Shown here: in pieces, positions 18,044 through 59,722 of the stretch
How the letters are laid out: every line of letters starts with the position of its first letter
Numbering within the stretch: position 1 is the first letter of the stretch
Source of the DNA: Porphyridium purpureum
Lineage: Eukaryota
DNA: 64,000 nucleotides
Direction: 5' to 3'
NCBI GenBank assembly: GCA_008690995.1
Contig: VRMN01000004.1
Coordinates: 1,426,001 to 1,490,000, forward strand
Position numbers and translations under genes: made by a program
The notes under the pieces: generated by a model
Told to the model about the DNA's origin: nothing
The model's database searches: none
The model's input: the letters and a program-made list of their open reading frames with translations, nothing else

Positions 18044-19852
18044 CTACGCACGCACAGTCCGAGCGGACGCACGCTGGTCCTCAATGGCACGCAGCGCTCT
18101 GGCGCGCAGCACAGCTTTCATTACGATGCTGCGGATGCCTTGAACTGGTAACTCGTCCAACACATTCTTCACAACGCCTTTAGCGCCTTGCGTGTTGTAC
18201 AGTATGCTGAGAGTGCTCCCGATGCGGCGCAGTGCATTAGTCTCCTCCGGGCGGTGCACAATGGGATCCGCGTTCCACGGATCAAACTCAACGATAAAGT
18301 CCGAATAGTGCGCGCGGAAGAATCGCGCCCCTGGCTGACGATTGAGCATGCACGCGGTGAACGAGAACGAACTGTTGCTGATGGCCAGCACGTCACACTG
18401 GGACAAAATGTACCAGTCTGGGAAAAACCCAGCTCCGAGAGATGCGCGCGACTCTGGAAGTTTTGCGTTGAGCATTTCTGACGTTATCGGGTTGTACGCC
18501 GCAAAGTCACGCAGAACGGTGTCGACTTCGTCAGATGCCACAAACAGGACCGGGTTCTCGAGCGTGGGCCAAATTTCCGCGAGCCATTCAAGGTACCAAC
18601 TTGTCGGGGCACAGTATCCGAACGAACTGGCAGAAATATTCTTATAATCACCAAGGCGCAAGTGAAGCCCCACGAGGGTGGTTTTGCCGCTCTTCGCCGT
18701 TCGCAGACCGGACGAAATAATCTGATCAAAGTGCTCGCGAACATCTGCCGCTGGTGTGAAGGTGTCCATGATCAGCTGCTTGTGCGGCGCGTACACGCTG
18801 CTGTGCCACTGGAACCAACCCCACACATCAACATTCGCGAGCTGGACGTCGGGCTTCGACGTGTCAAGCACGTCGTCGAAAACCTCTTCCACGTTCTGTC
18901 CGGCGTTACTTGCCTGGATGTACTCCATAAACTCATCGGTGAAGGTAGAGTTGGCCTTGCGCGTGCGGTCCTCAATCACAGAAGGTAAGCGCCTCACCAC
19001 GCGCGAGTTGTCGAGCTCGAACAAGTCAGTTCCGACCCAGTACGGCACCTGAATCTGCGCACCTGACTTTTCGGCGGCACAGCGAAGGAACGCGTACTGC
19101 AAGATCTGGTTTCCCCAGCGGCCGAGCTCTCCAAACCCGGTCATCGTAAGCACATTTGGCCCGTCGTACGGAGCGTACGGCTCGATGTCCGGCTGCTCAA
19201 CGTCGGCAACTGAACCCAGCTGGAAAATGCGGCTCAGTGCGATTTCCGTCTCCGCTTTGTACTTCTTCGATGCTCCCTTGGCCTCAGCAGAAGGGGGCCT
19301 CGGTGGTAGCACCGCCACCTCGGAAGACTCTGCAGAGCTCAGAACGGGTACTACCGCGGCTTGCGAGAGGCGGGCGCTCACACGGCGCGTCTGCTTGGAG
19401 CTCTTCTTCCCCACCTTGAATGAGGCGAGCGTGCCAGGAACCATAAACTCGTTCATGGCAGCATCGCCACTGCTGCTGCTGTCCTCGCTGTCCGGCACGC
19501 ACGCCGCCTCCGATTCGCTGCTTGACAGCTCCATCTTGGAGGTCGCCGTGAGCGCGCTGTGGCTCAGCGGCTGCTTCTTACCCGAGGCAGTCGCCAGCTC
19601 GTAAAACATGAGCACGGTGCGCAGGCCCGCCTCACCAAGCCTCTGCTCGACTTCAAAGTCCGTGGCTCCGTCCTCGAGCCCGGCATTCTCAAACACCATG
19701 TCGATCATGCGAAGATAGTCTTCTTGTGCCGGCATGGCCGGCGCGCCGGGCTTCCCCGGCGCCTTCCCTGCTGCCTTCTGCCTCTTCGCGGCAGGACCGC
19801 TTGTCGAGCTAAACTGCTCGCAGAAGGCTACGCCACTCATCACGCGCTTCAT
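18044..19852 (-). CDS. Glycosyltransferase family 11-like (alpha-1,2-fucosyltransferase-like) protein
   Basis: GRWGNQILQYAF, VGLHLRLGDY, LFVASDE and DWYILSQCDVLAISNSSFS match GT11 motifs; long low-complexity N-terminus. Confidence 0.8.
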   Translation of the reverse strand: MKRVMSGVAFCEQFSSTSGPAAKRQKAAGKAPGKPGAPAMPAQEDYLRMIDMVFENAGLEDGATDFEVEQRLGEAGLRTVLMFYELATASGKKQPLSHSALTATSKMELSSSESEAACVPDSEDSSSSGDAAMNEFMVPGTLASFKVGKKSSKQTRRVSARLSQAAVVPVLSSAESSEVAVLPPRPPSAEAKGASKKYKAETEIALSRIFQLGSVADVEQPDIEPYAPYDGPNVLTMTGFGELGRWGNQILQYAFLRCAAEKSGAQIQVPYWVGTDLFELDNSRVVRRLPSVIEDRTRKANSTFTDEFMEYIQASNAGQNVEEVFDDVLDTSKPDVQLANVDVWGWFQWHSSVYAPHKQLIMDTFTPAADVREHFDQIISSGLRTAKSGKTTLVGLHLRLGDYKNISASSFGYCAPTSWYLEWLAEIWPTLENPVLFVASDEVDTVLRDFAAYNPITSEMLNAKLPESRASLGAGFFPDWYILSQCDVLAISNSSFSFTACMLNRQPGARFFRAHYSDFIVEFDPWNADPIVHRPEETNALRRIGSTLSILYNTQGAKGVVKNVLDELPVQGIRSIVMKAVLRARALRAIEDQRASARTVRA

Positions 19853-25387: not shown

Positions 25388-26146
25388 CTACTTAATGTAG
25401 CTTTCCAAAGCAATGATGAGACGACCGAACGCTGGCTTCACCCATAGATCCCACTCTGTTTCATCGAAGCCACGCTCCTTGGCCATTTCGGCACTGACGT
25501 CGCGAAGGGAGCAAACGCCAAAGACCATGGCATCCAGAGGAACTTCGAATTCCTCGTAAAGCTTTTCCATAATGGAAAGACCCACTGGATCTAGAAAGTC
25601 ATCTTCGAGGCCCAGCGCCACGCTGTACGTCACAACACGCACAAACTCGACAAAGTCGCGCCAGCATGCCTTTGCACGAAACGCCGGGAAGAGGCCGCCT
25701 CCGGGCTGGTCGATGCCAGGGAAGGTTTCGAGCATGCGCTCGCGCGCAGCTTGGACAATCGCATCCACGCGTTCTTCCAAGAATGCAGCCATTTCCGCAT
25801 TGCCAGGCGGGTTCTTATTCCGTACCTGTGCCAGCTCGGACAGTGAAAGGAAGCGCTTTTCCTTCTCCGCCTGCTCGGCAAACGCCCCGCACGCTTCCGT
25901 GTTGTAGATTGGCTGCGCAATCTGCTGTTTGATCAATTCCATGATCCGCGGACTCAAGGCAGACGCCGTCCCTGCTGTCACTGCGTCGGCTCGCGCAGCC
26001 GATCCGTCTGGCGACGTCGCGCCTCCTGTGGCCGAGGAAGACGCGCCCTGCGCCTGCGCACACATGCACAGGCTACGGGATGACTGTGTGCGAAGTGCAG
26101 GCCGTGCTGCATGCCCCGAAGGTGCCGTGAACACGAAATGAAGCAT
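25388..26146 (-). CDS. Nucleus-encoded, plastid-targeted allophycocyanin-like (AplA-type) phycobiliprotein
   Basis: AEKEKRFLS..EL, FPGIDQPGGGLFP, AKACWRDFVEFVRVVTYS (bilin Cys motif), GLSIMEKLYEEFEVPLDAM; Ala/Ser-rich N-terminal extension. Confidence 0.8.
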   Translation of the reverse strand: MLHFVFTAPSGHAARPALRTQSSRSLCMCAQAQGASSSATGGATSPDGSAARADAVTAGTASALSPRIMELIKQQIAQPIYNTEACGAFAEQAEKEKRFLSLSELAQVRNKNPPGNAEMAAFLEERVDAIVQAARERMLETFPGIDQPGGGLFPAFRAKACWRDFVEFVRVVTYSVALGLEDDFLDPVGLSIMEKLYEEFEVPLDAMVFGVCSLRDVSAEMAKERGFDETEWDLWVKPAFGRLIIALESYIK

Positions 26147-34576: not shown

Positions 34577-36139
34577 CTAGGCATCCACGGGCTCTTCCGG
34601 TGCATTCGCGCTCACGATCTCAACTTCAAAAATCAACAGTGCATTTGGCGGGAGCATTTCCCCAAACATGTCCGTCATTCCTTCACACGCTGACGGATGC
34701 ACATAGAGGATCTTCTCCTCTCCCTCCCGCATCCCTACAATACCCGTTTTCAACGCAGCCGGCGCGGAATCAAGTGGAAGCGTCAGAACCTGCACCATGT
34801 TGCTGTCATTCTCTGCAGCGGGGCACGTGAAAAACACGCGCTTATCTAAAAGACGTCCCTGAAGGATCAGCAACACCGTTGCCGTTTCAAGCACCACGGG
34901 CGCGTTTTCATCCAGTTCGTCACTGGGGAAGGATTCGGCGAGCACCTTGCCGGGTTCGAGCACGGTCAAACTGCTCGACTTGGTCTTGAAGAACTCATCG
35001 GCGTCCGCAAGGTCTTGCTCGGCAACCAGTTCTGCAGCGATTTGATGCAGCCCCACCATCTGCTTCTCATATTCAGGATAAGACATGGGGAAGTCCTCGC
35101 CAGCCGCTGCACTTTTCAATCCCTTGACCACAAGGCCCACATCCAAGCCCAGACCCGAGCTCAGCAAGGACTGGCCGAGTGCGTGGCCATATGCCTCTGC
35201 AATCTTGCCCATGTCCGTGCCGGCGGGCGCCACGTCCGCGGCCGTCTTTCGCTTCGTTCCCAGACCTGAGGCTGCGCGCGTGCTTGCTCCTCCTGCTCTT
35301 CTCGCGCCTGCCGATGATACATTCGCACCGCTCTGTTCAAACATGGCCTTTGCCGCCTCCATCGACTCGTGCCACTTGCTCGGGTCGTTTACCACCTTGG
35401 CAAATTCCGGATCTGACTGCAGCCACTGGCTCAGCATGGGATTCTGGCGAATTGCTTCGCGCGACGCCTCCTGCTTTTCCGGATCATTTAGGTATTCTTG
35501 CATCGCTTCGCTGTTCCACAACCCGCTCATCATGTTCGGGAGCTGTGCCATGATGTCGGCAGCGCCGCCAGCGCCGCCAGCGCCTCCATCGGCCTGGTTT
35601 CCGCCGCCCAAGCCGCCGAGCATCTGCATCATCGCGTTCAAATCCATACCTCCCCCAGCCGCTGCTGGATTCGCGCCGGCAGCGCCAGCGGCTCCTGCGC
35701 CACCCATCATCTGCTGCATGAGCGCATTCAAGTCGGGCGCACCCTGCTCGGCACCGCCGCCAAGACCCATCGCATTCAGCTGGGCCATCATATCCGCGAC
35801 GTCTGAGTCGGCGGTCGCGGTGGCCCCTGCGGTCGCGGTGACCGCGCCTCCTGCCGCGGTCGTTGCCGCAGCGGGTGCGGCATCCTTCGCCGCGGCGGTC
35901 GCATTCGCGCCCATTCTGCGCATCACATTAATCGTGGAGCCGTCGGCGACGCCATACTTCTCGAGCGTCTGCGCAGGCTCAAGCTTCTGGCCCTTGAACA
36001 AGAGCATCTGCCGCTCCGCTCCAATCCCGCTCAGCGACGCAATCTGGCCCATGAAGTTCTCCACGGTGTCGCCACCGGACACTCGCAGCTCGTAGCTCTT
36101 CCCATTGAAACACTTCACCTTGACGAAAAAGGGCGCCAT
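34577..36139 (-). CDS. Ubiquitin-like + STI1-like + Mip/FkpA-type FKBP fusion protein
   Basis: UBL domain (VKCFNGKSYEL...QMLLFKGQKL...TLEKYGVADGSTI), Met/Gln-rich ubiquilin-like middle, FKBP_N (KIAEAYGHALG) and FKBP_C (GMREGE..LYVHP...LPPNALLIFEVEIV). Confidence 0.85.
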   Translation of the reverse strand: MAPFFVKVKCFNGKSYELRVSGGDTVENFMGQIASLSGIGAERQMLLFKGQKLEPAQTLEKYGVADGSTINVMRRMGANATAAAKDAAPAAATTAAGGAVTATAGATATADSDVADMMAQLNAMGLGGGAEQGAPDLNALMQQMMGGAGAAGAAGANPAAAGGGMDLNAMMQMLGGLGGGNQADGGAGGAGGAADIMAQLPNMMSGLWNSEAMQEYLNDPEKQEASREAIRQNPMLSQWLQSDPEFAKVVNDPSKWHESMEAAKAMFEQSGANVSSAGARRAGGASTRAASGLGTKRKTAADVAPAGTDMGKIAEAYGHALGQSLLSSGLGLDVGLVVKGLKSAAAGEDFPMSYPEYEKQMVGLHQIAAELVAEQDLADADEFFKTKSSSLTVLEPGKVLAESFPSDELDENAPVVLETATVLLILQGRLLDKRVFFTCPAAENDSNMVQVLTLPLDSAPAALKTGIVGMREGEEKILYVHPSACEGMTDMFGEMLPPNALLIFEVEIVSANAPEEPVDA

Positions 36140-36377
36140 CCTGCACCTACCAGCCGACGCACGCACTCGCTCTCCACGCCCCTCGTCTCTCTCCCACCCA
36201 ACGCCACCACACCTTGCTCTCTCGTCTCTTCCCCCGTCTATCTCTTGCCCCCTTCTTCCCCGTCTTAACCCATCCTTCCAGATCTCGCCCGTCCTACTAA
36301 ATTCACTCCCGTTCCTAGACTCCGACCCACAACCAGCCTGCGCACGGCCGCGCACATCGTCGCACCTTTCGCCCACA

Positions 36378-36411
36378 TTAACTATAGAAATAGATATATA
36401 TATTTTAAATT
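36378..36411 (+). promoter_or_regulatory. AT-rich TATA element, putative upstream Pol III promoter of the permuted tRNA
   Basis: TTAACTATAGAAATAGATATATATATTTTAAATT, exceptional in this GC-rich window; TATATATA at 36395-36402 lies about 25-30 nt before the pre-tRNA leader. Confidence 0.7.
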
Positions 36412-36441
36412 CTCGTTCCATTGTCCCAATCCAGCGAAATG

Positions 36442-36548
36442 CCGCAGTGGGAAACCGCGCGAGTTCGAATCTCGTCACAATCATGCTTGGGACTTCCTCG
36501 AAGACCTTTCGATTGTGTGGCCGAGTGGTCTAAGGCGCTGTGTTAAGG
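36442..36548 (+). tRNA. trnL-AAG: Circularly permuted tRNA-Leu(AAG): 3' half 36442-36483, 27-nt spacer, 5' half 36511-36548, junction at 37/38
   Basis: 5' half GATTGTGTGGCCGAGTGGTCTAAGGCGCTGTGTTAAGG; 3' half CCGCAGTGGGAAACCGCGCGAGTTCGAATCTCGTCACAATCA. Acceptor stem GATTGTG/CACAATC (7/7) plus discriminator A; anticodon stem CTGTG/CGCAG; T arm GCGAG-TTCGAAT-CTCGT; class II variable arm. Confidence 0.93.
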
Positions 36549-53433: not shown

Positions 53434-53553
53434 TCTGCTCTCTTACATGTAAACTGCATGTCCCAGGAGGCCCGTGACCGCCCGTTCTCCTAAACGTGTA
53501 CATCTGAGTTTGTTTGTCTAGTCTTGTAGAATGAGTTTCTGTTCATTGATTTG

Positions 53554-54066
53554 TTATTGTGTCATCTCTGCGAACGGATTGGCGTGGATGGTGACCGACT
53601 CTATGGCTATAGGCGCCACTGGCCGATCTACTTCTGGGTCTGTGTCACTACTCTCGATTCTCTGTAGCGTTTCCCACCCGTCAATCACGCGACCAAAGAC
53701 TGTTCCGACACCAGCCGTACCCGGCAGCGCGCCCAGCGTGATGAGAAACTGGCTGCCATTCTGGTCGGGCGCGGCAGACGCCGTCGCCAGTACTCCGCGA
53801 TGAGCTAAGCGCACAAGCAGTTCACCTCCACTCGGCGGCGCTTCGTCTTCAAAAGGTGCCCCATAAATCGACTTGTTCACCGTGCCTACGCCGTGCGGAT
53901 CCGAACCGCCCTGGACAAGCAAGCGCGGAATTACGCGGTGAAACACGACGCCGTTGTAGAAGCCGCTCGCACAGAGCGCCAGGAAGTTCTTGCTCGCAAT
54001 CGGACACTGCTCACACTCGAGCTCGAGTTTGAGCGGGCCGCGCGTGGTGTGGAGAGTCACTGCCAT
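53554..54066 (-). CDS. Cyclophilin-type PPIase, PPIL3-like (divergent)
   Basis: MAVTLHTTRG, NFLALCASG.Y, FHRVI, SIYG.PFEDE, NGSQF, VFGRVIDG, TIHANP. Confidence 0.9.
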   Translation of the reverse strand: MAVTLHTTRGPLKLELECEQCPIASKNFLALCASGFYNGVVFHRVIPRLLVQGGSDPHGVGTVNKSIYGAPFEDEAPPSGGELLVRLAHRGVLATASAAPDQNGSQFLITLGALPGTAGVGTVFGRVIDGWETLQRIESSDTDPEVDRPVAPIAIESVTIHANPFAEMTQ

Positions 54067-54084
54067 TGTAACGCACTCGTTGCG

Positions 54085-54648
54085 ATGGCGGGCGATGGGA
54101 CCGACTCGCTAAATCAGCGCGAGACACGCGAAATGCAGCGCTGCGAAAAACTTCGTGCTGGCGCACTCAGTGATCCGACGGTCAAGTTTATGTTGGAGCA
54201 CTTACAAAAGGCCGGCTGCGTAATGCCCGAGGAGGCGATTCGATGCATGCGTTGTGATGAGCGCGTGTTCGGCGGCTATCAAGGCGACGGCTCGATCGTG
54301 ATGGCGGCCAACCACATAGCGACCCAGGGCATCGCGAACGCGACGCTAGTACATGAGATGGTGCATGCGTTTGACGAGTGCCGGGCTTACATGGACTGGA
54401 ACAGCTGCAAGCAGCACGCGTGCAGCGAGGTGCGCGCGGCCGCTCTCTCGGGTGACTGCAACTGGGGAAAAGAGATACAGAGGGGGAATTTCAACTTTGC
54501 CAACCAGTTTCCGAGATGCATACGCAGACGCGCAGAGCTGTCCGTCGCGATGAACCCAAATTGTGGACCTGTGCTCGCGAAGGAGGCGGTTGCTGATGTG
54601 TTTGAGGTGTGCTATAATGACACCATGCCTTTCGACCGCATTCCTTGA
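54085..54648 (+). CDS. ATP23: Mitochondrial inner membrane metalloprotease ATP23
   Basis: PTVKFM, HEMVH (HExxH), HACSEVRAAALSGDC, CIRRRA..SV, CYNDT.PFD. Confidence 0.95.
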   Translation: MAGDGTDSLNQRETREMQRCEKLRAGALSDPTVKFMLEHLQKAGCVMPEEAIRCMRCDERVFGGYQGDGSIVMAANHIATQGIANATLVHEMVHAFDECRAYMDWNSCKQHACSEVRAAALSGDCNWGKEIQRGNFNFANQFPRCIRRRAELSVAMNPNCGPVLAKEAVADVFEVCYNDTMPFDRIP

Positions 54649-55259
54649 CAAAGGTGTCCTAGAAGCGCTTGCGGCCTTGTTGCGCAAAACACCCGCATGA
54701 TCTGTGTGATACCTCATACGCGATGAATTTTCATTTCTTGGCCCGCTTCTATTAATGAGAGTAAAGAACGCTACCAGGCATCCTTGAACATGGGTCACCA
54801 CACACATTTTCTTCAGAGTGGCGAAGCGCGAGAAGAAACGACATGGAGAATTCTGCAATCCAATCTCACGATCAGGGTGTTCACAACAAGCTTTTATCGT
54901 ATGCCTCGCCATCGTTCCAATACCTGACGCTGGCGCAAAGGGTGGGCGAGTTGGATGAAGGCCTGACAACGCGTTTCTCGGAGAAAAGCAATTGACGCAT
55001 TTCTGACCGAATTTTCTTGTTTCCTTCTGTGATGGAGGCGTCACGAAGCGTCTCGTGACTGCTCGTGTGTCCGAGTGCTCAACCTTTCTCGCCGAATGGA
55101 TATCACGAGCGCTCGGCATGCGGTCAATGCAATTAACAGCCTCTTTCAAGAGAGACAAGACTGCTGGTGGCTCTCCGAGGACGAAGGAGAACAGTGTGAG
55201 CGGTCGCGGGAAGAGGGAAGAAAGAAGAGTGCGGAAGCCATAGGACAAAGACGCTTGCG

Positions 55260-55865
55260 ATGGTGCTCAGAGTTCCCGTGTATCGGATATCTGAACCCCA
55301 CCATAGGAGGACATGTCCATTGCCAACATCCCCACGGACAGCCGCCTACGCGTGGTTGAGCCTCCCAATGTGTTTCACAGAGCTGTGCTCGATTGTGGAA
55401 GATGTTGGCAAAAGCGAAAATGAAGGTATTGCGTTCTTGGAGCTTGAATGTGACGCTGTTCCAGGTATTCGAGACTTGCTACTTCAAGAGTTACGAGAAA
55501 GAATACCCAGCGTAGAGAACGCGTTGTCGAGCCGCACTCTAGAAATTTTGCTGGAGCTTAACGATATCGCGAAGACAATCCAGGACCTTGCGATCCAGGT
55601 TGACTTTTGGGAGTATGCATTCCAGTTTTTGGTGGAAGTCAAACACAGAAGCCTCCGCAACGCGCTTGAGCGTATGCCAGATGTGATACTATTTTGCGGG
55701 TCAAGGAGTGAATTTGCTCAGGAACTCATTAATTCAAATCATACGGTCCCGTATATTTTGCAGAGCTACATTGACTGGGACAGAATGGGTTATGACATGG
55801 AAGCAAATGGTGAAATTTTCCTCGTGGCGCCCGAGCTGTATATTGTTAACCCCCATGACTTGTAA
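55260..55865 (+). CDS. Antirestriction protein ArdA-like
   Basis: WLSLP near the N-terminus; C-terminal FCGSRSEFAQELI...VPYILQSYIDWDRMGYDMEANGEI matches the ArdA signature (EFAEELI...IPE.L..YIDYE..ARD...G); net acidic. Confidence 0.7.
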   Translation: MVLRVPVYRISEPHHRRTCPLPTSPRTAAYAWLSLPMCFTELCSIVEDVGKSENEGIAFLELECDAVPGIRDLLLQELRERIPSVENALSSRTLEILLELNDIAKTIQDLAIQVDFWEYAFQFLVEVKHRSLRNALERMPDVILFCGSRSEFAQELINSNHTVPYILQSYIDWDRMGYDMEANGEIFLVAPELYIVNPHDL

Positions 55866-55931
55866 GCACTAGTACGGACGGTATGCTTCCATGCTAGCAC
55901 GCAAGAGACCTAATATCTCGTGGCAGAAATA

Positions 55932-56534
55932 CTAAAAGGCCTCTTCGCACTCAGAAAGCGTGACCAGCGCGCGTGCCCATTTGATATATTTCCAATTTCC
56001 AAGCTTTCCAATCGTGTCGAGCTTGTACGCCTGCAGCGCCTCATCTGCCTTCGATGTGATGCCCTGTAGCGCGGACGGCGGCAACGCAATGATTTCCGAA
56101 AGCGATTTTGTTTCGTGCTCTTTGTCCACCGCCTTATTTATGTTCATCATGGATCCAGCTGGACGCTTCCCTTCGCGCTCCAGCTCCTGCAACACTGCAA
56201 TTGCGGTTGCCCACTTGCCAAATTTCCACTCGGCAAGATCCTTGATTGTCTTCACATTCAGGGTCGCAAACATTTCGTCTGCGCGGGTTGTGATGCCCTG
56301 CAGCTGGTGCACGGGGCCGTTGACAATCTCGCGAAGAGTTTTACCCTCGGCAGCCTTCACCACGCATTCGGAGAGGTTCATTGAGTGCGACTCTAGACCC
56401 ATCGTAATCCAGCGTTTCTTCTGCGCCAGCATCACCCGTGGCGCCGATTTCGCGACGCACGCCACGCGCCACGGGCGTGCACGTGCGCCAATCCCAATCC
56501 CAATCCCATTATTCACAAATGCAACCATCTTCAT
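55932..56534 (-). CDS. Plastid-targeted protein with two tandem ~70-aa bacterial-type domains
   Basis: MVAFV transit motif; repeats MNLSECVVKAAEGKTLREIVNGPVHQLQGIT..ADE..KTIKDLAEWKFGKWATAI and MNINKAVDKEHETKSLSEIIALPPSALQGIT..ADE..DTIGKLGNWKYIKWARAL. Confidence 0.8.
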   Translation of the reverse strand: MKMVAFVNNGIGIGIGARARPWRVACVAKSAPRVMLAQKKRWITMGLESHSMNLSECVVKAAEGKTLREIVNGPVHQLQGITTRADEMFATLNVKTIKDLAEWKFGKWATAIAVLQELEREGKRPAGSMMNINKAVDKEHETKSLSEIIALPPSALQGITSKADEALQAYKLDTIGKLGNWKYIKWARALVTLSECEEAF

Positions 56535-57216
56535 CGCACGATAGTTCCCTACAAATGCCCTTCAGCCCGTCGCGCCGCTCGCCGATCGCCAAAAAGTATC
56601 CTAACACCTGCCGGGGATCACACTAAATGACAGTCCGCAGCAGCCGCGTGCGGGAACTGGCCACGTGCCCGATGTTGCCTGAATCGACAGCTTGTGGCAC
56701 GGCGTATCCTGCTCGGATCGCGGCGCTTAGCCAGGTTCCAAAAATTTGTGCTGCGTCCACCGGCAGACTCCCCCGTGAAGCAATAAACAGATATGAACTC
56801 GCGCTTCCGCCTCGTCGCAGATCCAACTTGGCCAATCGCTCGCGGACGTCAAACCTGCAGTGCACCCTTTCCTCCCTCGCGCGTCGCGTGGCTTTCGTCG
56901 CGGACCTTGCTTGTTGAGGATACTGAGTCGCACGCACGCTTGCAGATTCGGCTTGCGCAGGTCTCGTTCGCACCGACACACCCTCGTAGGACGAGTCGTT
57001 GTGCAATCGAGCCGGCACCAGCTGACAGCACCGGCGTTATCGGTTCGTCAATTAATGATACCGATGCCTCTTAAACGGTTTCGGGAGGGAGGAGTGGGGG
57101 GATCGCAGGAGAAATGCCCGACGTGTGAGGGATTGTATTCGTGAGAGCTCTGACAGGCTGGCTCGTGCCCTTGAGATTGTGTTGCTCGCAGAGCGACGCA
57201 CAACAGCACGCGAAAT

Positions 57217-57762
57217 ATGGCGACTAGCGCGTTCCACTTCCCGGCGTTCCATGCCTTTCCGCCTTCGTACACGCGGCAGCCCGTGCGCGCGACGCGGGAA
57301 AAGCAAGTGAGCCTGTGGTGCGATCTGATGCTTGCGTTCTGCAAGCACCGCGGCGATTTCTGGGTGGACATGGCGGAGATTACGCAGTCAGAGCTCTTTG
57401 TGAACGCGGCCATCAATCGGCGTATGAAAGGAGAGGACGTCGTGTTCCTGTTCGACGAGCTCGTGAATCGCGGTGATGCTCAGTGGGACGTGCAAGGTGC
57501 CGGGAAGACCAGGTGCCTGGTCTTCTGGCGAAGCCCGGCAGAGTGGGGTGACTTGGTTTACACGTATATTGACCGCACGGGACAGAACAATAGCGTCATG
57601 ACCTTGTATGAGCTGCGGTGCTCGGACATGACAAAAGGAGAGCCATTCCATAATCTCGACCTCGACTTGATGCTCCTTGCGCTTCAGAGCCTGGAACTTG
57701 CCAACAAGGCGGCCATCTTTGAAGGCGCTAAATCAGACCAGTTGGGTGTCAAGTTCTTATAA
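57217..57762 (+). CDS. VPS25: ESCRT-II subunit VPS25
   Basis: FP..HAFPPSYTRQP, LFVN.AINRR, WRSPAEW, TLYEL, GVKF. Confidence 0.95.
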   Translation: MATSAFHFPAFHAFPPSYTRQPVRATREKQVSLWCDLMLAFCKHRGDFWVDMAEITQSELFVNAAINRRMKGEDVVFLFDELVNRGDAQWDVQGAGKTRCLVFWRSPAEWGDLVYTYIDRTGQNNSVMTLYELRCSDMTKGEPFHNLDLDLMLLALQSLELANKAAIFEGAKSDQLGVKFL

Positions 57763-57793
57763 ACAAGTTTATACAGTACATTTCCAAGTCGAA

Positions 57794-59722
57794 TCATGGC
57801 TGTTGTAGGCGTTCGAAAAGCTGCCCCGCACTACCTTCGCGGCCGACTGTCGGGATGATACGGAGAGGGCGAAGCCAACGGCAGAACTCCACGAGCTCAT
57901 CGAAAGAGCTGTGCTCCGAGTACGGCGCTTCGTACAAAACGCAGTTCTTGCTCTGCATCCGATGCAGCGTAAGCTGCCCACCTTTAACGCTGTCTTTCGT
58001 CCGCCACGTCCATCCCGTCGGCCGAAAGCCTACCGCGTACTTGAATCGACTAGCGTTACGAGCCAGGAACTCGCGGAAATGGTTCATGTTAAGCTGTCCC
58101 ATCGGTACTATGAAAATATGTGGACGAGTGCTAGCAGATGTGTCCACCACATTCGAGATCCGCTCCCAGTCAGACAAAGGCAAATCAAGGCACTTCAGCA
58201 CGGCCTGTTTCCGTTTTGATACTACAAGCCGTGCGTCGAGCGCCTCTGCAAGCTCGAGATACACGCGCTCCTTACCAATGGTGTACGATCCGACAAAGTA
58301 CGCTACGTCGCGCCCACTAAATTGCTCACATCGTGCGGCTCGAAGAACAGCGTCGATGACTTGCCGCTGCGGAGGGAACGTGTACTGCTTGTTCGAATAG
58401 GTGGTGTCCAGGTACAAAACGTCAAGCCGGGTGTCATCCGTCGCATTTGTAGACAAAAGGCGCAGCGGTTCTTGAAGCTCGAAAATGGAGCGCTCGAAGC
58501 GACAGTCTCCACAATGGAGAATTCGCTTCCCTGTCGTCCAGACCAAAAAGAGAAACATGACCGAGCCAGGGCAGTGGTTTGCGTCCAGCGCAATGCACGT
58601 TGCTCCTCGTAATATGATGCCTTTTGCTGCGTCGTGACCTTGCTCCCTCTTGATTGCCTCGCGCGTCGCCAGCGATACGCCCTCATCATGAATTTCAACG
58701 GGCTTCATGAGGGGCAGCACGACAAACTGGCTGTCGCTGAGATTGAATTCGAGCTGCACAAGCCTCGCTGTGATCGAAGAACAAAAAATCTTCCACGGAA
58801 ACTTCCGCGAAAGCCCGCCATAATGATCTGAGTGGAAGTGACTGAGGAAAAAATTTCGACAGTGGCCAGGGTCAGCCCTGAATGAATCCACGGTGAACGT
58901 TGTCCCAGGTACACGCTTGTTAGGCGCATGCTGGTACTTTCGCTTGGTTGAATCAGTTCCCTCCGGTCCGACGTCACAAATTGCGTGCTCCGAAGCAAGC
59001 GCACTCTGCTCTCCTGTGGCATGCTCGCTCTTGATTCCGCGCCCGCGCTTGGCTTCAGGCTCTTTCCACTTGACCGGCCAACGCATGCTAGATGCCTTCT
59101 TTCGCATTTCCGCAGGTTTGTAGCTACCTCCACGTTGTCCACCAACTGAACCATCAAGCCCGACGGAGACGCCTTCATCTTTAGCGGAGAGCCCCTCGGC
59201 CGGCTTTTCTGTGGATGATAGAGCCAGATAAGCGCAGGCGCCCCTCGGCGCTTCGTGTTCTGTGAATTTTCCGGCACGGCAGGTTTCTGTCTGCTTTTTC
59301 CCTGCAGCCGACCGAAACGGCCACGCAGCCAGTGACTTTGATGTTGAAGATCCCTTGGATGTACTTTCAGGCCGTGCCTTCTGCGACACGAGCTCGACGA
59401 CGTCATCTGCATCTACGTCAATGACATAATCCACCATTGCCGGATTTTCGACATGTGTTTGGGTGCCCTCCTGTTCACTCTTTGTTTCCGCAAGTGCCTT
59501 GCCAAGATCCTGTTCATTTTGCAGTTCCAGACACGCTCCAAGTACCGGTTGCTCAGGCCCTCCGGTCCTAACATTTTCTGAGGCTGACGCTGCGGCGTTC
59601 GTGCCGCCGGGGAGCCTTCTGCGCTTCAGACTGTGACTGTCACAGAAATCCGAGTCATCGCTGAGCGGCATATCCCAGCCTGAGTGCTCGCCATTGGCGC
59701 GCACGTCTACTGCGCGCTTCAT
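57794..59722 (-). CDS. DNA cross-link repair nuclease SNM1/PSO2 (MBL beta-CASP)
   Basis: FTVDSF, FLSHFHSDHYGGL, DANHCPGS, HCGD, YLDTTY, YTIGKER, RPTGW, YSEHSSF. Confidence 0.93.
   Translation of the reverse strand: MKRAVDVRANGEHSGWDMPLSDDSDFCDSHSLKRRRLPGGTNAAASASENVRTGGPEQPVLGACLELQNEQDLGKALAETKSEQEGTQTHVENPAMVDYVIDVDADDVVELVSQKARPESTSKGSSTSKSLAAWPFRSAAGKKQTETCRAGKFTEHEAPRGACAYLALSSTEKPAEGLSAKDEGVSVGLDGSVGGQRGGSYKPAEMRKKASSMRWPVKWKEPEAKRGRGIKSEHATGEQSALASEHAICDVGPEGTDSTKRKYQHAPNKRVPGTTFTVDSFRADPGHCRNFFLSHFHSDHYGGLSRKFPWKIFCSSITARLVQLEFNLSDSQFVVLPLMKPVEIHDEGVSLATREAIKREQGHDAAKGIILRGATCIALDANHCPGSVMFLFLVWTTGKRILHCGDCRFERSIFELQEPLRLLSTNATDDTRLDVLYLDTTYSNKQYTFPPQRQVIDAVLRAARCEQFSGRDVAYFVGSYTIGKERVYLELAEALDARLVVSKRKQAVLKCLDLPLSDWERISNVVDTSASTRPHIFIVPMGQLNMNHFREFLARNASRFKYAVGFRPTGWTWRTKDSVKGGQLTLHRMQSKNCVLYEAPYSEHSSFDELVEFCRWLRPLRIIPTVGREGSAGQLFERLQQP

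What the first reader, a model, noticed from the sequence alone, without database searches (positions are those of the whole stretch)
55260..55865. Bacterial ArdA-like antirestriction (DNA-mimic) gene in an algal nuclear genome
Seen in sequence: an intact 201-aa ORF, about 31 D/E versus 17 K/R, with WLSLP and EFAQELI...VPYILQSYIDWDRMGYDMEANGEI motifs. The DNA is visibly more AT-rich than its neighbours and lies between ordinary eukaryotic genes (ATP23, VPS25). Established knowledge: ArdA proteins of conjugative plasmids and ICEs mimic DNA to inhibit type I restriction-modification enzymes, which eukaryotes lack. Inference: a horizontally acquired gene, possibly repurposed as a decoy for DNA-binding proteins, or a relic of plasmid or conjugative DNA integration.
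Basis: inference. Interest (0 to 1): 0.78.

Follow-up and report, generated by a model that had tools for sequence, protein, structure and literature searches.

The report
Bacterial DNA-mimic gene in red alga
An algal (likely red-algal) chromosome carries an intact relative of ArdA, the DNA-mimicking protein that phages and plasmids use to jam bacterial restriction enzymes; it was likely acquired from a bacterium or phage, keeps the conserved core but has about half the usual negative charge, and likely serves as a weakened, retargeted decoy rather than a restriction blocker.

Summary
Window 55260-55865(+) is an intact 201-aa ORF (31 D/E, 17 K/R, 47.7% GC against 56%) that passes Pfam's ArdA cut-off (E=4e-8). 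Its predicted fold matches Tn916 ArdA best, for residues 70-200 only (Z 7.7, moderate). DNA contigs from two studies span it with its eukaryotic neighbours, so it is not a chimera. Contigs from three other studies begin 52-87 nt upstream of the ATG, a weak hint of transcription (strand unknown). Of 29 other hits among 1.84 billion proteins, 28 are ArdA-like (best 44-48% over the C-terminal part); none of the 20 looked up had a eukaryotic source. The nearest kin lie in phage, integrase and chromosomal settings, apart from the classical ArdA group; the donor is unresolved. The C-terminal half keeps 23 of 23 hydrophobic columns and the dimer motif, but only 9 of 19 acidic columns (net charge -14 against a median of -28). 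Best reading: an old horizontal acquisition kept for its fold, as a weakened or retargeted decoy; a decaying relic is nearly as likely. No function was tested. No paper or earlier scan note on a eukaryotic ArdA turned up; databases already carry the Pfam label.

The parts
55260..55865 (+). ArdA-family ORF, 201 aa (P0001); no intron seen
   Evidence: no joints or gaps in the contigs that cover it
55260..55349 (+). Residues 1-30: basic, Pro-rich N-terminus (5 R, 1 E, 5 P; pI 10.8) in place of the family's Y-N-x-G strand-loop; remodelled domain 1 or a targeting peptide (undecided)
55350..55553 (+). Residues 31-98: diverged rest of domain 1, opening with AWLSLPM (7 of 7 identical to relative P0148); about 15-20 extra residues; alignment ambiguous
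   Evidence: pLDDT under 50 for most of residues 1-60
55554..55862 (+). Residues 99-201: conserved ArdA domains 2-3, ending at the same C-terminal position as the nearest relatives
   Evidence: hmmsearch 95 bits over 99-201; hhalign probability 99% over 124-192; pLDDT 87-98 over residues 101-201; matches 2w82
55746..55796 (+). Residues 163-179: anti-restriction / dimer-interface motif; V163, L167, Y170, I171, D172, D179 correspond to Tn916 V130, L134, Y137, I138, D139, D146
   Evidence: mapped by eye from the 2w82 alignments and alignment A1; residue roles from PMC2731889
55173..55259 (.). Possible 5' leader: contigs of three studies begin at 55173, 55176 and 55208, while 54812-55172 is uncovered in all four runs of that call
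   Evidence: weak hint, strand unknown, RNA status of the runs is a guess
55932..56534 (-). Convergent neighbour gene (200 aa, P0003); RNA contigs that cover it reach into the last 100-150 nt of the ArdA ORF
54085..54648 (+). Upstream neighbour ATP23 (Peptidase M76)
57217..57762 (+). VPS25 (ESCRT-II), second gene downstream

Best explanation
This is an intact ArdA-family gene in the alga's chromosome, likely taken up long ago from a bacterium or phage, whose protein keeps the C-terminal core and dimer motif but has about half the usual negative charge, and which likely acts as a weakened, retargeted decoy that binds a DNA-binding protein of the alga itself. Shown: family membership, nuclear location, intact frame, loss of charge with retention of the hydrophobic core. 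Inferred: horizontal origin (about 0.9); upkeep by selection (about 0.6); head-to-head dimer through the Y170/I171/D172/D179 motif and binding of a basic host DNA-binding protein in the nucleus or an organelle (about 0.35-0.4 overall). A type I restriction enzyme is unlikely to be the target, as eukaryotes are not known to have one (established knowledge, not checked in this genome).
For: Family: PF07275 above cut-off; the Atlas hits shown are ArdA clusters, by features 0.91 and by structure TM 0.60 over 161 residues; top PDB match is 2w82 in both fold searches (Foldseek probability 0.98, E=0.15; Z 7.7, rmsd 2.9 over 109 residues, next row 6.1). Location: contig X1-2 covers 53646-56652 and X3-17 covers 53500-58000 in one piece, two studies. 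Origin: 28 of 29 other hits match PF07275; none of 20 looked up has a EukProt or MMETSP source; all 33 other window genes scanned lack mobile-element domains (34 other ORFs minus none mobile; 6 had no family). Selection on the fold: 23 of 23 hydrophobic columns kept in residues 115-201 (relatives' median 96%) against 9 of 19 acidic columns (median 68%; 1 of 52 relatives as low); a neutral frame would stay open 11% of the time at 0.1 and 2% at 0.2 changes per base, while the end branch is 1.25-1.95 changes per column. Precedent for other targets: ArdA binds the repressor AllR (PMC13300388, abstract) and alters expression of many genes (PMC10746416, abstract); a C-terminal-only sArdC is active (PMC12548430, passages).
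Against: No orthologue in another eukaryote was found, so there is no dN/dS. The long branch may lie in an unsampled donor lineage rather than in the alga. GC3 of close relatives reaches 0.45-0.48, so amelioration, and hence age, is not shown. The acid loss is only borderline against the family mean (binomial P 0.05). Codon usage is the least host-like of 29 window genes, as expected of a barely expressed gene. Losing charge weakens the mimic itself: by eye only 1 of the 7 acids that run across the Tn916 dimer interface is kept. The first 100 residues show no significant profile match to domain 1 (hhalign probability 0.14%). The transcription hint has no strand and may be read-through from the convergent neighbour.
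Confidence: 0.4

Rival explanations
1. Relic: a horizontally acquired ardA that is barely expressed, has no function and has not yet picked up a stop codon.
For: Least host-like codon usage of 29 genes and GC3 equal to intergenic GC; remodelled N-terminal half; reduced charge; no orthologue found.
Against: 23 of 23 hydrophobic columns kept while 10 of 19 acidic ones changed; an open 201-codon frame is unlikely after more than 0.2 neutral changes per base; contig starts at 55173 and 55176 in two studies.
Confidence: 0.28
2. Domesticated for a role unrelated to DNA mimicry: the ArdA fold is used as a small dimeric scaffold, possibly in the mitochondrion or plastid by way of the basic N-terminus.
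For: Fold kept, charge halved; residues 1-30 are basic and nearly acid-free, like the N-termini of COQ7, the DEAD helicase and the phycobiliprotein in this window. Precedent: the ArdC-N domain was reused in XPC/Rad4 and kinetoplastid Tc38 (PMC5512222, passages).
Against: The protein is still acidic (pI 4.3 for residues 31-201). VPS25 has a similar N-terminal make-up, so composition does not discriminate. The Atlas model aligns residues 1-198 with an ArdA, so the N-terminus may still be domain 1.
Confidence: 0.22
3. A still active inhibitor of type I restriction enzymes, acting on bacteria around the alga or kept from a mobile element that shuttles between them.
For: Anti-restriction motif and the hydrophobic pair matching the VF motif are kept; short C-terminal ArdAs are active (PMC12548430); bacterial plasmids replicate in the nucleus of one red alga (PMC6110788, passages).
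Against: Net charge -14 against medians of -28 and -31; no mobile-element genes or terminal repeats nearby; no evident route to a bacterial cytoplasm (inference).
Confidence: 0.06
4. Assembly chimera or bacterial contamination.
For: Lower GC and odd codon usage.
Against: Single contigs of two studies span the ORF and both flanks with no joints; contigs of four further studies join parts of the ORF to the neighbour gene or its leader; no near-identical bacterial copy among 5.8 billion proteins. X1 or X3 may be the data the window was assembled from, so one of the two may not be independent.
Confidence: 0.02

Closest known systems
ArdA of Tn916 (ORF18; PDB 2w82, 7bto, 7btr; Pfam PF07275)
   Same: Profile match above cut-off; domains 2-3 superimpose (rmsd 2.9 over 109 residues); V130, L134, Y137, I138, D139, D146 and a hydrophobic pair at I160-F161 have counterparts.
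   Different: Nuclear gene of a eukaryote; pI 4.7 against 4 (PMC2731889); by eye 1 of 7 interface acids kept; Y-N-x-G loop of domain 1 replaced by a basic, Pro-rich stretch; 36 residues longer.
Metagenomic ArdA subgroup ending ...N-(A/P)-x-D-(F/L) (P0127, P0128, P0131, L020, L023)
   Same: 44-48% identity over the C-terminal 65-82 residues, same C-terminal end, same side of a starred branch (98/99) in the C-terminal tree.
   Different: These keep the acidic surface (C-terminal net charge median -15 against -8 over 52 relatives); they lie beside a phage portal and Rha (L023), an integrase (L024, a further member) or housekeeping genes (L020).
Chromosomal ardA of Bifidobacterium bifidum and small sArdC / sArdN (PMC10746416, PMC12548430)
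   Same: ArdA kept outside a conjugative element; effects on host gene expression reported; C-terminal part alone suffices for activity.
   Different: Those are bacterial and were shown to inhibit type I restriction; nothing has been shown here.
ArdC-N domain recruited into XPC/Rad4 and kinetoplastid Tc38 (PMC5512222)
   Same: An anti-restriction module of mobile elements taken into a eukaryote.
   Different: ArdC-N binds single-stranded DNA and is unrelated to ArdA; those transfers are conserved across lineages, while this one is known from one genome.

Membership tests
ArdA (PF07275) | Profile score above the Pfam gathering cut-off | tested here: met
   34.4 bits against 27, E=4e-8, residues 31-189
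ArdA (PF07275) | Fold of domains 2 and 3 | tested here: met
   2w82 is rank 1 in both PDB searches, model 70-200 on chain 52-165. Z 7.7 is moderate, and the model was built on an ArdA alignment, so it is not independent of the sequence match.
ArdA (PF07275) | N-terminal domain 1 (three-stranded sheet, Y-N-x-G loop) | tested here: inconclusive
   hhalign probability 0.14% for residues 1-100, only AWLSLPM aligned; low pLDDT; but the Atlas model aligns 1-198 at TM 0.60. Y-N-x-G itself is absent.
ArdA (PF07275) | Anti-restriction / dimer-interface motif (Tn916 126-140, Y137, I138, D139, D146) and VF motif | tested here: met
   V163, L167, Y170, I171, D172, D179 kept; L193-Y194 at I160-F161; L127 not kept (by eye)
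ArdA (PF07275) | Strongly negative surface that mimics the phosphate backbone | tested here: inconclusive
   Still acidic (pI 4.7) but at the low edge: net -14 against median -28, 2 of 51 relatives as low per residue; 9 of 19 C-terminal acidic columns kept. Surface geometry not computed.
ArdA (PF07275) | Head-to-head homodimer | not testable with these tools
   needs a purified protein
ArdA (PF07275) | Inhibits type I restriction-modification enzymes | not testable with these tools
   needs a lambda plating or in-vitro assay
Conjugative plasmid / ICE leading region | ardA beside relaxase, transfer, integrase or other establishment genes | tested here: not met
   34 other window ORFs scanned against Pfam show no such domain; 6 had no family; no convincing terminal repeats in 54600-56000

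The most novel reading that the evidence does not exclude
A red alga has domesticated a phage-type anti-restriction DNA mimic and rewired its charge pattern and N-terminus into an inhibitor of one of its own DNA-binding proteins (nuclear, or an organellar nucleoid protein reached by the new basic N-terminus): a eukaryotic cellular regulator built from a prokaryotic anti-defence protein.
Probability: 0.25. Interest if true: 0.82.

Novelty: new variant of a known kind. Interest (0 to 1): 0.5.

Why it matters
Eukaryotes have borrowed many bacterial defence genes, but counter-defence genes have no obvious target in them. An intact ArdA-family gene in an algal nucleus is either a trace that phage or integrative-element DNA reached and entered the nucleus, or a DNA mimic put to a new use. 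Both can be tested cheaply: the gene is small, lambda plating assays for ArdA are standard, and at least one unicellular red alga is transformable (PMC6110788). The split between a kept core and an eroded acid surface also offers a natural test of how much charge an ArdA needs. Horizontal transfer as such is common in such algae (5.4-9.3% of genes with reticulate history in Porphyridium purpureum, as quoted in PMC6110788), which caps the surprise.

Tried and rejected
No whole genome is held, so paralogues and a host restriction system could not be searched. NCBIfam: no family. phmmer against PDB sequences with the single protein: only chance hits, best E=0.15. Single-sequence fold: pLDDT 40, discarded. 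Word-based searches with the protein alone found only itself among 221 candidates and nothing in viral contigs. Homodimer prediction: no answer, score 0.29 under the mark 0.32, alignment not used; no evidence either way. Atlas search of residues 1-100 did not complete. Viral fold library: best rows are phage ArdAs (E 2e-3 and worse, none at 0.001 or better); no eukaryotic-virus row scored better than E=1.4, which does not exclude that route. The two runs on record as RNA (X19, X20, one study) cover the neighbours but not 55260-55712; a hole in contigs proves nothing. Contig depths were not used to rank genes. Strain differences: 8 places in 53500-58000, none in the ORF, about 1 expected, so uninformative. 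Donor: the full-length tree pairs the protein with P0131 (99/84, both long branches), the C-terminal tree leaves it unresolved; no AU test was run and no donor is named. P0126, the top non-self hit, is a repeat artefact and was dropped. The Fisher test compares columns picked at different thresholds and is not relied on. The neighbour P0003 as a control for sister species gave nothing above 47% identity, so the presence of sister species in the collections is not shown. A genome paper of the guessed genus was not held, so its transfer lists were not seen.

Full report
Observation. An in-frame stop lies 21 codons upstream of the ATG, so the frame cannot be extended far. Upstream is ATP23; directly downstream is a convergent 200-aa gene, then VPS25.

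Host. The window is gene-dense, with long uninterrupted ORFs of eukaryotic housekeeping genes (MutS, HECT ligase, COQ7, SCO1, eIF2A, ESCRT-II). It also encodes an allophycocyanin-like protein with a long N-terminal extension, which points to an alga with phycobilisomes, most likely a red alga. A Porphyridium-like species is my guess from genome style; no call established it. The protein is in NCBI, UniRef and EukProt as a singleton on a 1.85-Mb contig, with PF07275 already precomputed.

Is it really nuclear? One contig of run X1 (study P1) covers 53646-56652 and one of X3 (study P2) covers 53500-58000, with no joints. One of them may be the window's own source data. Four more runs from four studies hold parts of the ORF. 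No near-identical prokaryotic copy turned up. A chimera or contaminant is very unlikely.

Family. Pfam ArdA matches residues 31-189 at 34.4 bits, cut-off 27. A full phmmer scan of 1.84 billion representatives gave 29 other hits; 28 match PF07275, 26 of them above the cut-off, and one is a repeat artefact. Sources were looked up for 20 of the 29: all metagenomic or bacterial collections, none EukProt or MMETSP. An orthologue over 50% identical would be hidden behind the query in that library, and the word-based search can miss it, so absence from other algae is not shown. A model built on a 32-row alignment has pLDDT 76, high in the C-terminal half and under 50 for most of residues 1-60. Its best PDB match is Tn916 ArdA by Foldseek (probability 0.98, E=0.15) and by VIA-align (Z 7.7, rmsd 2.9, 109 residues). 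These scores are moderate and cover domains 2-3 only. The Atlas's own model aligns residues 1-198 to an ArdA at TM 0.60. Profile comparison finds no significant match for residues 1-100 except AWLSLPM, so domain 1 is remodelled or replaced.

Relatives. From 278 ArdA-like sequences of 140-240 aa, 51 were kept at under 62% mutual identity and P0127 was added back. In the tree of the C-terminal part the algal protein falls, with 34 others, on one side of a starred branch (98/99), apart from the group that holds most named proteobacterial ArdAs; within that side it is unresolved. The set was gathered by similarity to the query, so it is biased. Of the close loci examined, L023 has a phage portal and Rha, L024 an integrase, L040 an OLD-UvrD pair and Rhs, L020 housekeeping genes, and L021, L026, L027 and L100 mostly unknown small genes. 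A phage or integrative element is therefore at least as likely a source as a conjugative plasmid. No donor is named.

What was kept and lost. Mapped by eye on the Tn916 sequence shown, the residues that PMC2731889 places at the dimer core are kept (V130, L134, Y137, I138, D139, D146 = V163, L167, Y170, I171, D172, D179), L127 is not, and only 1 of the 7 acids that run across the interface is. Net charge is -14, against a median of -28 in 51 relatives (2 as low per residue) and -31 in 120 classical ArdAs. In residues 115-201 the protein keeps 23 of 23 hydrophobic columns but 9 of 19 acidic ones; 1 of 52 relatives is as low, binomial P about 0.05. Over the whole length the counts are 34 of 38 and 17 of 30, with an uncertain N-terminal alignment.

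Expression and selection. Contigs of X13, X6 and X8 (three studies; RNA status guessed or unrecorded) begin at 55173, 55176 and 55208, and 54812-55172 is uncovered in all four runs while DNA runs go through. This is a weak hint of a transcript end 85 nt before the ATG; the strand is unknown, and read-through from the convergent gene fits as well. Codon usage is the least host-like of 29 window genes, between host-like and uniform, and GC3 equals the intergenic GC: this fits low expression and does not date the transfer, as close relatives have GC3 of 0.19-0.48. A neutral frame would rarely survive more than 0.2 changes per base, but how much of the long branch lies in the alga is unknown.

Mechanism. 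Shown: an intact nuclear ArdA-family gene with a kept core and halved charge. Inferred: horizontal origin (0.9), upkeep by selection (0.6), and a dimeric acidic rod that binds a host DNA-binding protein (0.35-0.4). Bacterial ArdAs do reach non-restriction targets such as AllR (PMC13300388). Rivals: relic (0.28), unrelated scaffold role, perhaps organellar (0.22), true anti-restriction (0.06), artefact (0.02).

Literature. Searches: ArdA + antirestriction + eukaryot (47 papers, 30 listed); ArdA + red alga (8, all unrelated by listing); ArdA + DNA mimic + chromosome + H-NS; antirestriction protein ArdA + Porphyridium (0); anti-defense + eukaryot + HGT + ArdA (9); DNA mimic protein + eukaryot + horizontally acquired (6); PF07275 (9). 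No title or abstract start reported a eukaryotic ArdA; most papers were seen as listings only, and subscription papers and genome-paper supplements were not seen. Read: PMC2731889 parts 2-3 of 6; passages of PMC5512222, PMC6110788, PMC12548430 and PMC11724313; abstracts of PMC13300388 and PMC10746416. Earlier scan notes: 444 mention ArdA; the 13 ArdA notes shown were all prokaryotic or phage, and searches with eukaryote words, by sequence and by place found nothing.

Verdict. A real and apparently unreported placement of a known family, with a distinctive loss of charge; function untested and known from one genome. New variant of a known kind, interest 0.5.

Noticed in passing
window 55932-56534 (-): 200-aa protein with a basic N-terminal extension and two similar halves; no Pfam family; relatives at 37-47% in Salpingoeca and MMETSP/EukProt sets, strong match to phrog_36017 of unknown function (E=1.8e-32), weak match to a DinB/TM0106 stretch. 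RNA contigs over it extend into the 3' end of the ArdA ORF.
   Followed up: partly
window 25388-26146 (-): Nuclear-encoded, diverged allophycocyanin-like protein with about 90 extra N-terminal residues.
   Followed up: partly
L020:4623-5252, L022:662-1291, P0128: ArdA subgroup with a four-cysteine (CxxC...CxxC) insertion in domain 1, like a zinc ribbon; L020 sits among housekeeping genes (HU, csrA, aspartokinase and alanyl-tRNA synthetase, named by eye).
   Followed up: no
L040:72-9859: Two different ardA genes about 700 nt apart, between an OLD-type ATPase/TOPRIM plus UvrD pair and an Rhs gene.
   Followed up: no
P0143, P0146: Metagenomic proteins of 497 and 267 aa with two ArdA C-terminal stretches, P0143 fused to a basic N-terminal region.
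   Followed up: no
window 34577-36484 (-): One ORF joins a ubiquitin-like domain, a ubiquilin-like domain and an FKBP domain.
   Followed up: no
window 18044-19852 (-): Glycosyltransferase family 11 domain; origin not examined.
   Followed up: no
window 53554-54648: Cyclophilin (-) and ATP23 (+) start head to head only 18 nt apart by first ATG; the true ATP23 start may lie further down.
   Followed up: no
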